Sequence record: PV659873.1 | Direction: 5' to 3' (one strand) | Source: Escherichia phage WPEC1 | DNA length: 64,000 bases | Part shown: positions 3,306-4,121 of the stretch, piece by piece | Numbering within the stretch: position 1 is the first letter of the stretch | Layout of the letters: the number at the start of each line of letters is the position of its first letter | The notes under the pieces: model-generated | What the model was told of the DNA's origin: nothing | Seen by the model: only the letters and a program-made list of their open reading frames with translations | The model's database searches: none | Program-made: the position numbers and the translations under genes

Positions 3306-4121
3306 TTATTTGTTTAAGTGGTCTTCGACCATTTTAATGAAACCTTCATTGCTGAAGGCTGTTGCAGCTTTTTCTCGGTAAACAAAAACTCCACGATCTT
3401 CATAGAGAAGTGTTTCTTCGTAATTAACTCCAGGGTTAACTACAACCATTTTTGTACCCATACTAAGTGCAGGAAATAATTCCCAATTAAAATTGATAAC
3501 TTGGTTTGAACATCCTACTACTACAACCAAATCTTGCATGGTCAAAGTATCGAACAAGTGAGCCATATCTGCATACAAAGGTGCAGCCTCACCAAAAAAT
3601 ACAACATTAGGCTTCACCCAGTTATAATCATCTATGTTTATACTATTGTAACCAATATCTACCAGTGTTTTGTAATCTCCAGGATGCATACGGTAAACTA
3701 CTTCAGGAAGATATCCGTGTACGTGAATAACAGAATCTCTGTCTACACCTGCTCGCTCTAGTAGATCATCAACGTTTGTTGTCAAGTTTACTATTTGGTT
3801 AGGATATTCCTTAAACCACTTTGCTATTTGAATATGTGCAGCATTAGGTTGTACATCTTTAAGCTCAACACGTCTTTTGTTATAAAATTCGTGTGTTTTG
3901 GCATACAAATCCATACCGTTCTCGTCTACACCACCGACCACTGGAAGATCTGGAGATGTTCTAACACGATAACCTGCTTGGAAAGCTCCAATATCGCAGA
4001 CCTCTTCTAAATCATATTCTTCCCATAAAGCACGACCACTATCTGTGTCTGTTCTAAATGTTCGAATCCCACTGTCTGCGCTTAAACCTGCACCGCTTAC
4101 AAAAATTACTCGTCTTGGCAT
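3306..4121 (-). CDS. Sir2-family (sirtuin-like) NAD-dependent protein, no Cys4 zinc module
   Basis: N-terminal VIFVSGAGLSADSGIRTFR (GAGxSxxSGIxxFR), LTTNVDDL, VIHVHG, VVFFGE; no CxxC...CxxC pair. Confidence 0.75.
   Translation of the reverse strand: MPRRVIFVSGAGLSADSGIRTFRTDTDSGRALWEEYDLEEVCDIGAFQAGYRVRTSPDLPVVGGVDENGMDLYAKTHEFYNKRRVELKDVQPNAAHIQIAKWFKEYPNQIVNLTTNVDDLLERAGVDRDSVIHVHGYLPEVVYRMHPGDYKTLVDIGYNSINIDDYNWVKPNVVFFGEAAPLYADMAHLFDTLTMQDLVVVVGCSNQVINFNWELFPALSMGTKMVVVNPGVNYEETLLYEDRGVFVYREKAATAFSNEGFIKMVEDHLNK

What the first reader, a model, noticed from the sequence alone, without database searches (positions are those of the whole stretch)
3306..4121. Sir2-like protein without the zinc-binding module
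The protein has the sirtuin NAD-binding signature (GAGLSADSGIRTFR, VVFFGE) and a conserved His, but no CxxC...CxxC zinc ribbon. Sir2 domains in bacteria often act as NAD-consuming defense effectors; a phage copy at the end of an early operon could be a deacylase or ADP-ribosyltransferase aimed at host proteins, or a decoy.
Basis: partly seen in the sequence, partly recalled or inferred. Interest (0 to 1): 0.55.

Follow-up and report, generated by a model that had tools for sequence, protein, structure and literature searches.

The report
Zinc-free phage sirtuin, already described
This E. coli phage gene encodes a CobB-like NAD-dependent sirtuin that keeps its small "finger" domain but has lost the zinc-binding cysteines; the family has been annotated in hundreds of phages and this peculiarity was published in 2016, but its real substrate has never been tested.

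Summary
Window 3306-4121 (minus strand) encodes a 271-aa Sir2-family protein with the NAD-binding motifs and catalytic His135. It has only two cysteines, neither in the zinc-ribbon segment.

The module is not missing. A confident AlphaFold model keeps a three-stranded ribbon there, so only the ligands are lost. The closest sequence and fold relatives are true deacylase sirtuins (E. coli CobB, SIRT5), not defence NADase SIR2 domains.

The window is a Phapecoctavirus. The gene is already labelled Sir2 in GenBank and PHROGs, and orthologs occur in 975 phage records, including T5. The zinc-free finger was reported for KVP40-like phages in 2016. A Tpt1-like RNA-repair role for this phage clade was predicted in 2022.

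New details from this work:
- Cysteine loss is shared by all six phage lineages compared and tracks a Q-to-T change in the TQNID motif.
- Stephanstirmvirinae add a 21-aa insertion and a co-transcribed 161-aa acidic partner of unknown fold.
- Sir2 and partner alleles recombine independently.

Best guess is an early-expressed, zinc-independent lysine deacylase (0.42). The RNA 2'-phosphate transfer hypothesis remains a serious rival (0.25). This is a known family of untested function, so interest is low to moderate.

The parts
4649..4678 (-). Sigma-70-type promoter: TTGACA, 18 nt spacer, TG-extended TATAGT (11 of 12 matches), upstream of the two-gene unit
   Evidence: scan. It is a consensus match only, and promoter-like sites are not enriched in the region overall (7 found, 7.4 expected).
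4610..4634 (-). GC-rich hairpin followed by a T-run, lying between the promoter and the 161-aa ORF. It is the terminator of the upstream gene, or possibly a 5' leader structure.
   Evidence: A terminator is annotated at the same place in phage Schickermooser. Terminator-like sites are enriched here (7 found, 1.9 expected).
4106..4591 (-). orf161: 161-aa very acidic protein (pI 4.05, net charge -27), phrog_9509, unknown function. It has a conserved CxxC (aa 15-18) plus C43, and its last 16 nt overlap the Sir2 start.
   Evidence: It sits immediately upstream of Sir2 in the two further genomes read in full, Phapecoctavirus ESCO5 and Justusliebigvirus PD06, and most of its matches lie under both a hypothetical protein and Sir2.
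3306..4121 (-). Sir2-family (CobB-like, class III-like) sirtuin, 271 aa, preceded by a GAGGAGG Shine-Dalgarno
4053..4097 (-). NAD pyrophosphate-binding motif SGAGLSADSGIRTFR (aa 9-23), including F22 and R23
   Evidence: Invariant G10 A11 G12 S14 S17 F22 R23; near-invariant across 139 representatives
3909..3971 (-). 21-aa insertion (aa 51-71, RVRTSPDLPVVGGVDENGMDL) in the small helical domain, specific to Stephanstirmvirinae
   Evidence: Present in the window and PD06; absent from T5, Mydovirus, rV5-like and ValKK3 orthologs. It explains the two-stretch Pfam and PDB matches. pLDDT about 90.
3873..3884 (-). Class III signature Tyr80...Arg83 (FYNKR), equivalent by alignment to the FYNAR segment of E. 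coli CobB (the anionic-acyl pocket)
   Evidence: Alignment to CobB. F79 Y80 R83 R84 invariant. The Y/R pair is kept in 106 of 139 relatives.
3765..3782 (-). TTNVDD (aa 114-119): the sirtuin TQNID motif with the Gln replaced by Thr115. Asn116 and Asp118 are retained.
3717..3719 (-). Catalytic His135 (HG motif)
   Evidence: Aligned to the HG of CobB; invariant in 139 of 139 representatives
3615..3713 (-). Cysteine-free ribbon (aa 137-169) replacing the Cys4 zinc ribbon, with a conserved D-I-G-Y tip (aa 155-158)
   Evidence: No Cys. Same length as the CobB ribbon. Predicted strands at pLDDT about 96. G157 and Y158 invariant in A4.
3588..3605 (-). VVFFGE (aa 173-178), the substrate-loop / acyl-lysine tunnel motif
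3281..3298 (-). Intrinsic terminator directly after the Sir2 stop codon
   Evidence: annotated likewise in Schickermooser

Best explanation
The gene encodes a catalytically competent, zinc-independent sirtuin of the canonical CobB/SIRT5-like kind. The lineage is old and is shared by large virulent phages of enterobacteria and vibrios.

**Shown**
- The Rossmann NAD-binding domain, the catalytic His135/Asn116/Asp118 set, the Phe22/Arg23 cofactor loop and the FGE substrate loop are all present.
- The small ribbon domain is kept without its four cysteines.
- The gene lies in a two-gene unit with a sigma-70-type promoter and its own terminator.

**Inferred**
- Early in infection the enzyme binds NAD+ and an acylated lysine of a host or phage protein.
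- The acyl oxygen attacks C1' of the nicotinamide ribose and nicotinamide leaves. His135 then activates the ribose hydroxyl, and the acyl group departs as O-acyl-ADP-ribose.
- The retained Tyr80/Arg83 pair suggests that acidic acyl groups (succinyl, malonyl) are accepted as well as acetyl.
- The likely purpose is to reset the acylation state of metabolic or replication proteins for the phage's benefit.
- In place of zinc the ribbon is presumably held together by side-chain packing or salt bridges.
For: **Closest relatives are deacylases**
- Best PDB sequence hit is E. coli CobB at E 7.6e-19.
- Best fold hits are CobB (E 4e-17, TM 0.85 on the target), Sir2-Af1 and SIRT5. All top 50 are canonical deacylase sirtuins.
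- Best NCBIfam hits are CobB-type deacylase models.

**Catalysis is conserved**
- The model is confident: pLDDT 91, pTM 0.88.
- Catalytic and NAD-binding residues are invariant in 45 close homologs and near-invariant in 139 representatives: H135 139/139, N116 139/139, D118 134/139, R23 137/139.
- The class III Tyr/Arg pair is invariant in the close family.
- The substrate-loop motif FFGE-x-AP-x-Y is conserved.

**Expression and prior work**
- A promoter, a strong Shine-Dalgarno and a terminator are present.
- An independent modelling study of the KVP40-like ortholog reached the same deacetylase reading and measured its transcript during infection (PMC5107563).
Against: - No biochemical test exists for any member of the clade; none was found in 8 literature searches.
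- The zinc module is reported to be required for deacetylation in canonical sirtuins (PMC12700824), and here its ligands are gone.
- The Gln of TQNID is replaced by Thr or Ala in all six phage lineages compared.
- The segment after the GTS motif, which I recall as contributing to peptide binding, reads V-I-N instead of V-x-P.
- CobB equivalog models score far below their cutoffs: 85.9 against 320, and 106 against 243.
- In three other lineages the ortholog sits among RNA-end-healing genes rather than with anything that suggests a protein substrate.
Confidence: 0.42

Rival explanations
1. **RNA-repair sirtuin** (prediction of Iyer, Burroughs, Anantharaman and Aravind, 2022). The enzyme acts like Tpt1/KptA. 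A 2'-phosphate on cleaved or re-ligated RNA attacks NAD+ in place of an acyl oxygen. The ribose hydroxyl, activated by His135, then takes the phosphate away as ADP-ribose cyclic phosphate, completing repair of tRNAs cut by host anticodon nucleases.
For: **Context, reproduced here at domain level**
- In rV5-like slur16 and Mydovirus VIK251, Sir2 lies within a run of phosphoesterase, Rnl1-type RNA ligase, cREC cyclic-phosphate-processing domain (E 4.5e-15 and 1.8e-17), P-loop kinase, MazG and DNA ligase genes.
- In T5, a HAD_SAK_2 'Swiss-army-knife RNA repair' phosphatase (E 4e-20) lies three genes downstream, before the next annotated terminator.

**Orthology and clade-specific changes**
- The window protein is orthologous to these (53-60% aligned identity; 46-56% by tblastn) and shares their clade-specific traits.
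- Those changes, a Cys-less ribbon and Q-to-T, fall on cofactor and substrate-side elements.
- The Tyr/Arg anion pocket could hold a phosphate (inference).
- The reaction chemistry is closely analogous (established knowledge of the Tpt1 and sirtuin mechanisms).
Against: - In this genome type the RNA ligase / kinase / phosphoesterase / MazG cluster is intact but lacks Sir2, which sits about 30 kb away.
- No RNA-repair domain was found in the ten minus-strand genes scanned around Sir2 (nine upstream to about 5 kb, one downstream), and the cluster is absent from the window.
- Rnl1-type ligase is found in only 15 Salmonella-phage records against 289 with Sir2, so T5-like phages carry Sir2 without it.
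- ValKK3 shows no such linkage.
- The proteins are uniformly acidic: median pI 4.9, net charge about -14, ribbon net -3. That is unusual for an RNA-gripping enzyme, although the argument is weak.
- The hydrophobic FFGE tunnel motif is retained.
Confidence: 0.25
2. **Host-takeover or counter-defence enzyme.** The sirtuin uses NAD+ without deacylating. It either mono-ADP-ribosylates a host protein or nucleic acid, as a functional analogue of T4 Alt/Mod, or it consumes or alters an NAD-derived molecule used in host immunity.
For: - It lies in a leftward block of accessory genes. These include a DNA methyltransferase and, 4 kb upstream, an Acb2/Tad1-hairpin protein, the fold of anti-CBASS and anti-Thoeris sponges (E 2e-16).
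- It has an early-type promoter.
- The ribose-contacting Gln is changed and the zinc ligands are lost.
- Some sirtuins are ADP-ribosyltransferases (PMC9503650).
- The Mydovirus ortholog lies about 5 kb from NadV and PRPP synthetase, which would offset NAD consumption.
Against: - There is no similarity to defence or SirTM-type sirtuins, and no macrodomain among the ten minus-strand genes scanned around Sir2.
- The closest relatives are all deacylases.
- Proximity to anti-defence genes in a phage accessory region is weak evidence.
- The association is not conserved in T5, rV5-like or Vibrio phages.
Confidence: 0.15
3. **Inactive decoy or purely structural remnant.** The fold is unstable without zinc, so the protein only binds something, for example a host sensor.
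For: - The zinc ligands are lost, and the zinc module is reported as needed for canonical activity (PMC12700824).
Against: - Every catalytic and NAD-binding residue is invariant across lineages down to 40% identity.
- The ribbon is modelled with very high confidence.
- The Cys-less state is old and shared by the six lineages compared, within a family found in 975 phage records. That means it is selected for, not decaying.
Confidence: 0.03

Closest known systems
E. coli CobB and class III sirtuins (SIRT5, Sir2-Af1): NAD-dependent lysine deacetylase/desuccinylase
   Same: - Same two-domain architecture, with TM 0.85 to PDB 1s5p.
- Same GAGxS...FR motif, Asn/Asp pocket, catalytic His-Gly and FGE loop.
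- Same Tyr...Arg pair for acidic acyl groups.
- The ribbon segment has the same length.
   Different: - Only about 27% identity.
- No zinc cysteines.
- Thr in place of the Gln of TQNID.
- A D-I-G-Y ribbon tip that is absent from CobB.
- A 21-aa insertion in the helical domain.
- It scores far below the CobB equivalog cutoffs.
Sir2/CobB of KVP40-like Vibrio phages phiSt2 and phiGrn1 (Skliros et al. 2016, PMC5107563), and T5.102 'Sir2-like protein'
   Same: - Orthologous clade: 59% aligned identity to T5.102 and 40% to ValKK3.
- The same cysteine-free finger was already reported there, with salt bridges proposed as the substitute for zinc.
- The same deacetylase reading was proposed.
   Different: - The window protein carries the Stephanstirmvirinae-specific insertion and the orf161 partner.
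- The genomic context differs.
The 'distinct clade' of phage sirtuins predicted to act in RNA repair (Iyer et al. 2022, PMC9503650)
   Same: - Same protein clade (rV5, Mydo and T5-like SP15 types).
- The contexts cited in that paper were reproduced here.
   Different: In Phapecoctavirus the gene is detached from the RNA-repair cluster.
Defence-associated SIR2 NADases (ThsA, DSR1/2, SIR2-HerA, short pAgo SIR2; Pfam SIR2_2)
   Same: Sirtuin superfamily, NAD+ as substrate, no bound zinc.
   Different: - Those proteins lack the beta-ribbon altogether, have a seven-stranded sheet, and are fused or coupled to sensor domains.
- This protein keeps the ribbon, is single-domain and matches no defence model (PMC12700824).

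Membership tests
Sirtuin / SIR2 superfamily (Pfam PF02146) | Significant match to the family profile | tested here: met
   80.5 bits against a cutoff of 24; PHROG 2162 at E 2.8e-104
Sirtuin / SIR2 superfamily (Pfam PF02146) | Rossmann fold with GAGxS, an Asn/Asp nicotinamide pocket and a catalytic His | tested here: met
   AF2 model at pLDDT 91 with top-50 fold matches all sirtuins. G10-A11-G12-S14, N116, D118 and H135 are invariant.
Canonical zinc-containing deacylase sirtuins (CobB / class III) | Four cysteines (CxxC...CxxC) coordinating a structural zinc | tested here: not met
   Zero Cys in aa 137-169; only C42 and C204 in the whole protein
Canonical zinc-containing deacylase sirtuins (CobB / class III) | Three-stranded ribbon module inserted in the Rossmann fold | tested here: met
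   Predicted strands 136-144, 152-155 and 168-173 at pLDDT about 96. This is a prediction only.
Canonical zinc-containing deacylase sirtuins (CobB / class III) | Gln of the TQNID motif | tested here: not met
   Thr115, invariant in the close family; Thr or Ala in all six phage lineages compared
Canonical zinc-containing deacylase sirtuins (CobB / class III) | Class III Tyr-x-x-Arg pair for acidic acyl groups | tested here: met
   Y80 and R83 align with the FYNAR segment of CobB and are invariant
Canonical zinc-containing deacylase sirtuins (CobB / class III) | Score above the curated CobB equivalog or subfamily cutoffs (NCBIfam) | tested here: not met
   106.3 against 243 (NF001753) and 85.9 against 320 (NF040867)
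Canonical zinc-containing deacylase sirtuins (CobB / class III) | NAD-dependent lysine deacylase activity | not testable with these tools
   No biochemical data were found for any clade member
Defence-type SIR2 NADases (ThsA, DSR, SIR2-HerA, SPARSA) | Match to defence-system SIR2 models | tested here: not met
   PADLOC gave only E 0.017 to an unrelated candidate model. None appears among the top 50 fold matches.
Defence-type SIR2 NADases (ThsA, DSR, SIR2-HerA, SPARSA) | Fused or adjacent sensor or partner domain (SLOG, HerA, pAgo, TPR) | tested here: not met
   Single-domain 271-aa protein. The ten neighbouring genes scanned have no such domains.
SirTM (macrodomain-linked ADP-ribosylating sirtuins) | Adjacent macrodomain gene | tested here: not met
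   No macrodomain among the ten genes scanned around Sir2
Phage sirtuin clade of Iyer et al. 2022 (predicted RNA repair) | Orthology to the rV5, Mydovirus and T5-like sirtuins | tested here: met
   53-60% aligned identity over the full length (46-56% by tblastn). The Cys-less ribbon, TTN motif and DIGY tip are shared.
Phage sirtuin clade of Iyer et al. 2022 (predicted RNA repair) | Neighbourhood of RNA-end-healing genes (RNA ligase, cREC, kinase, HAD, 2H, MazG) | tested here: not met
   Met in slur16, VIK251 and T5. Not met here: none among the ten genes scanned around Sir2, the cluster is absent from the window, and it lies about 30 kb away in the reference genome.
Phage sirtuin clade of Iyer et al. 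2022 (predicted RNA repair) | Tpt1-like RNA 2'-phosphotransferase activity | not testable with these tools
   A prediction in PMC9503650; no experiment was found

The most novel reading that the evidence does not exclude
The whole phage clade, marked by the cysteine-free ribbon, the Gln-to-Thr change and the DIGY tip, may have switched from protein lysines to a nucleic-acid substrate. It would then be the first sirtuin acting as a Tpt1-like RNA 2'-phosphotransferase in phage tRNA repair, using the class III Tyr/Arg anion pocket to hold the phosphate.

This idea was published as a prediction in 2022. The novelty would therefore lie in experimental proof and in the structural markers identified here.
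Probability: 0.25. Interest if true: 0.75.

Novelty: already known. Interest (0 to 1): 0.28.

Why it matters
This family is one of the most widespread auxiliary enzymes of large virulent phages that are used as models and in therapy (T5-like, rV5-like, phAPEC8-like, KVP40-like), and nobody has shown what it does.

If it is a deacylase, phages edit the host acyl-proteome early in infection with an enzyme that does not need zinc. That would also be a natural counter-example to the view that canonical sirtuins need the zinc module.

If it acts on RNA 2'-phosphates, it would extend sirtuin chemistry to nucleic acids.

In either case the gene itself is not a discovery. The value lies in a clear, cheap set of experiments.

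Tried and rejected
1. **Defence-type SIR2 / NADase effector.** Rejected. There is no PADLOC match, all top fold matches are deacylases, and the ribbon is retained.
3. **orf161 supplying a zinc knuckle in trans to the cysteine-less Sir2.** Considered because of its conserved CxxC plus Cys. No support was found. The fourth Cys lies in the overlap tail and is absent in Justusliebigvirus. Sir2 and orf161 alleles are shuffled independently. Other lineages have the same cysteine-less Sir2 without orf161. The orf161 model is of only moderate quality: pLDDT 79, with the other four models at 58-64.
4. **My recollection that Lactobacillus Sir2La lacks zinc.** The accessible text does not support it, so it was not used.
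5. **Provenance of the metagenomic relatives.** The cluster look-up returned no names. The question of whether the Cys-bearing relatives are cellular or viral stays open.
6. **Strict dependence on an Rnl1-type RNA ligase.** Rejected from record counts.
7. **Literature search for experimental work on T5.102 or any other phage sirtuin.** Nothing was found beyond in-silico work and transcript data.
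Full report
**1. What is in the sequence**

The coordinates hold a real ORF on the minus strand: 3306..4121, 271 aa, ATG start.
- It matches Pfam SIR2 at 80.5 bits against a gathering cutoff of 24.
- It matches PHROG 2162 'Sir2 (NAD-dependent deacetylase)' over its full length at E 2.8e-104.
- The protein has only two cysteines, C42 and C204. Neither lies in aa 137-169, the segment that aligns with the cysteine-bearing ribbon of E. coli CobB.

**2. The zinc module has lost its ligands but is not deleted**

The segment between HG and KPNVVFFGE has the same length as in CobB. An AlphaFold2 model built from 45 sequences is confident (mean pLDDT 91.1, pTM 0.88). It predicts strands at 136-144, 152-155 and 168-173 with pLDDT about 96, which is the ribbon topology. 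The last of these strands runs into the conserved KPNVVFFGE element.

Canonical sirtuins are said to need the zinc module for deacetylation. Defence-type SIR2_2 proteins lack the beta-module altogether and have a seven-stranded sheet (PMC12700824). This protein is a third state: canonical architecture with a metal-free ribbon. A structure prediction cannot prove the absence of metal, but there are no candidate ligands.

**3. Which kind of sirtuin**

| Test | Result |
|---|---|
| Best solved sequence relative | E. coli CobB, E 7.6e-19 |
| Best fold matches | CobB (E 4e-17, TM 0.85 on target), Sir2-Af1, SIRT5, SIRT2; all top 50 are canonical deacylase sirtuins |
| Defence-system models (PADLOC) | No match; only E 0.017 to an unrelated candidate model |
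| NCBIfam CobB models | Best hits, but far below cutoff (106 against 243; 86 against 320) |

It is therefore not a CobB equivalog.

In 45 close homologs the following are invariant:
- G10, A11, G12, S14, S17, F22 and R23
- N93 and H96
- T115, N116, V117 and D118
- H135 and G136
- F175, F176 and E178
- G203 and S205
- N229

The class III pair Tyr80/Arg83 aligns with the FYNAR segment of CobB and is invariant. From established knowledge of SIRT5 and CobB, that pair recognises succinyl- and malonyl-lysine.

**4. Where the window comes from, and how well known the gene is**

- The region is 100% identical to Escherichia phages WPEC2, WPEC4 and WPEC6. It is 99.7% identical to phAPEC8-type phages (genus Phapecoctavirus, subfamily Stephanstirmvirinae).
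- Those records already annotate the gene as a Sir2 NAD-dependent deacetylase.
- By tblastn the protein has homologs in 975 phage records, listed below.

| Lineage | Identity to the window protein (tblastn) |
|---|---|
| T5 itself (T5.102, 'putative Sir2-like protein') | 52% |
| T5-like Salmonella and Klebsiella phages | 50-62% |
| Mydovirus | 56% |
| rV5-like Vequintavirus | 46% |
| KVP40-like Vibrio phages | 36-37% |
| Jumbo phages | 30-37% |

Two papers already cover the finding:
- **Skliros et al. [quoted passage not shown] They proposed that salt bridges stabilise the finger. They argued for deacetylation of host proteins such as acetyl-CoA synthetase, and measured the transcript during infection.
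- **Iyer et al. 2022 (PMC9503650).** They defined the proteobacterial-phage sirtuins as a distinct clade. From gene neighbourhoods they predicted a KptA/Tpt1-like role in removing RNA 2'-phosphates.

No biochemical or genetic test of any member was found.

**5. What this analysis adds**

*(a) Cysteine loss is old and tracks a second change.*
- Orthologs from Justusliebigvirus, T5, Mydovirus, an rV5-like phage and a KVP40-like phage all lack the ribbon cysteines. Their aligned identities to the window protein run from 96% down to 40%.
- All of them carry Thr or Ala in place of the Gln of TQNID.
- Two metagenomic relatives with CxxC...CxxC keep the Gln.
- The counts across 139 representatives at 50% clustering are tabulated below.

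| Ribbon segment | Not Gln | Gln |
|---|---|---|
| 2 or fewer Cys (53 representatives) | 41 | 12 |
| 3 or more Cys (86 representatives) | 15 | 71 |

- The Fisher exact test gives p = 2e-12. The sequences are related, so this p-value overstates independence.

*(b) A D-I/V-G-Y motif* at the ribbon tip is shared by Cys-less and Cys-bearing relatives and is absent from CobB.

*(c) A 21-aa insertion* (aa 51-71) in the helical domain is specific to Stephanstirmvirinae.

*(d) The clade is uniformly acidic*, with median pI 4.9 and net charge about -14.

**6. Local anatomy**

Reading along the minus strand:
1. A near-consensus sigma-70 promoter (TTGACA, 18 nt, TG-extended TATAGT) at 4678-4649.
2. A hairpin with a T-run at 4634-4610.
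3. A 161-aa ORF at 4591-4106.
4. Sir2, which follows a GAGGAGG Shine-Dalgarno. Its ATG lies 16 nt inside the upstream ORF.
5. A terminator at 3298-3281.

The Schickermooser record annotates terminators at the same two places.

The 161-aa protein:
- It belongs to phrog_9509. It is extremely acidic (pI 4.05) and has no Pfam domain.
- It is restricted to Stephanstirmvirinae: 131 phage records and only 9 clusters in the 5.8-billion-protein search.
- It sits immediately upstream of Sir2 in the two further genomes read in full, ESCO5 and the Justusliebigvirus PD06.
- Its CxxC plus Cys43 are conserved.
- Its model is only moderate and finds no informative fold match.
- The two genes have discordant histories. 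PD06 has Sir2 at 96% but orf161 at about 38%. KKP 3954 has orf161 at 97% but Sir2 at 68%. This argues against allele-specific co-adaptation.

**7. Weighing the mechanisms**

*Context evidence for RNA repair is real.* It was reproduced here at domain level.
- In the rV5-like and Mydovirus phages, Sir2 lies among phosphoesterase, Rnl1-type ligase, cREC, kinase, MazG and DNA ligase genes.
- In T5, a HAD_SAK_2 RNA-repair phosphatase lies three genes downstream.

*That context is absent here.*
- Phapecoctavirus keeps the ligase / kinase / phosphoesterase / MazG cluster without Sir2, about 30 kb away.
- None of those genes is in the window.
- The ten minus-strand genes scanned around Sir2 carry no RNA-repair domain.
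- T5-like phages have Sir2 without an Rnl1-type ligase: 289 Salmonella-phage records carry Sir2 and only 15 carry the ligase.

*Homology evidence favours a lysine deacylase.* This rests on the closest relatives, the complete catalytic set, the Tyr/Arg pair and the FGE loop. It is weakened by the lost zinc ligands, the Gln-to-Thr change and the altered segment after the GTS motif.

| Hypothesis | Confidence |
|---|---|
| Zinc-independent, early-expressed lysine deacylase | 0.42 |
| Tpt1-like RNA 2'-phosphate transfer | 0.25 |
| Other ADP-ribosyl transfer or NAD-directed counter-defence | 0.15 |
| Inactive decoy | 0.03 |

The counter-defence reading is suggested only by the accessory-gene setting, which includes an Acb2/Tad1-hairpin protein 4 kb away.

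**8. Verdict**

However, the gene, its family and even the zinc-free finger are already in the public record. The defence-effector framing does not fit. What remains open is the substrate, which needs bench work rather than more sequence analysis. The novelty class is 'already known', and interest is low to moderate.

Noticed in passing
window 7908..8222 (-): A 104-aa ORF carries a Pfam Acb2/Tad1 hairpin domain (PF24729, E 2e-16, 60 bits against a cutoff of 27). It is probably a cyclic-nucleotide or gcADPR sponge (anti-CBASS / anti-Thoeris). It lies in the same leftward accessory block as a DNA methyltransferase (5303..6028) and Sir2.
   Followed up: partly
window 7408..7680, 7690..7950 and 8195..8392 (all -): Three adjacent small acidic ORFs end in a shared motif: W-x-S-S-S-(x)-C (WISSSSMC, WHSSSC, WHPSSLSC). 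There is a fourth, internal copy (WQSSSC). These are the only four matches in all six frames of the 64-kb window, and three are exactly C-terminal. Two of the ORFs hit phrog_899. Meaning unknown.
   Followed up: partly
window junctions at about 11110 and about 20372-20525: The window is not collinear with any public Phapecoctavirus record. Relative to Schickermooser it skips about 8.7 kb (the PhoH / HslV / rml sugar cluster) and about 27 kb (RNA ligase cluster, tRNAs, terminase, portal, capsid, sheath). No record spans the second junction, including the otherwise 100%-identical WPEC4, where the two pieces lie apart and in opposite orientation. This could be a rearranged genome, a misassembly or a composite.
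   Followed up: partly
window 4610..4678 (-): A near-perfect sigma-70 promoter is followed about 15 nt later by a terminator-like hairpin, before orf161. The order promoter-then-terminator is unusual. The hairpin may terminate the upstream gene while also forming the 5' end of the Sir2-unit transcript.
   Followed up: no
window 3306..4591 compared with NC_052653 (PD06, locus L008) and OR067838 (KKP 3954): There is a recombination mosaic at the orf161/Sir2 boundary. PD06 has Sir2 at 96% and orf161 at about 38%. KKP 3954 has orf161 at 97% and Sir2 at 68%.
   Followed up: partly
window 6376..7317 (-): A 313-aa protein with DUF7277 and DUF7275 (E 1.7e-13 and 7.5e-76), phrog_2141, function unknown. 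It is conserved upstream of the methyltransferase.
   Followed up: no
window 2963..2986: A perfect 10-bp-stem bidirectional terminator sits at the point where the rightward small-gene block (44..2920) and the leftward block converge.
   Followed up: no
public records seen: Several records labelled Campylobacter, Acinetobacter or Listeria phage (for example Campylobacter phage A150, Acinetobacter phage vB_AbaM_ABPW7, Listeria phage LM 4-11-1) are 97-99% identical to E. coli Phapecoctavirus or T5-like sequence. They are probably mislabelled or contaminant entries.
   Followed up: no
locus L005 (Klebsiella phage VIK251), positions 1..1126: In Mydovirus, nicotinamide phosphoribosyltransferase (NadV) and ribose-phosphate pyrophosphokinase lie about 5 kb from Sir2. 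This NAD-salvage pair would recycle the nicotinamide that a sirtuin releases.
   Followed up: no
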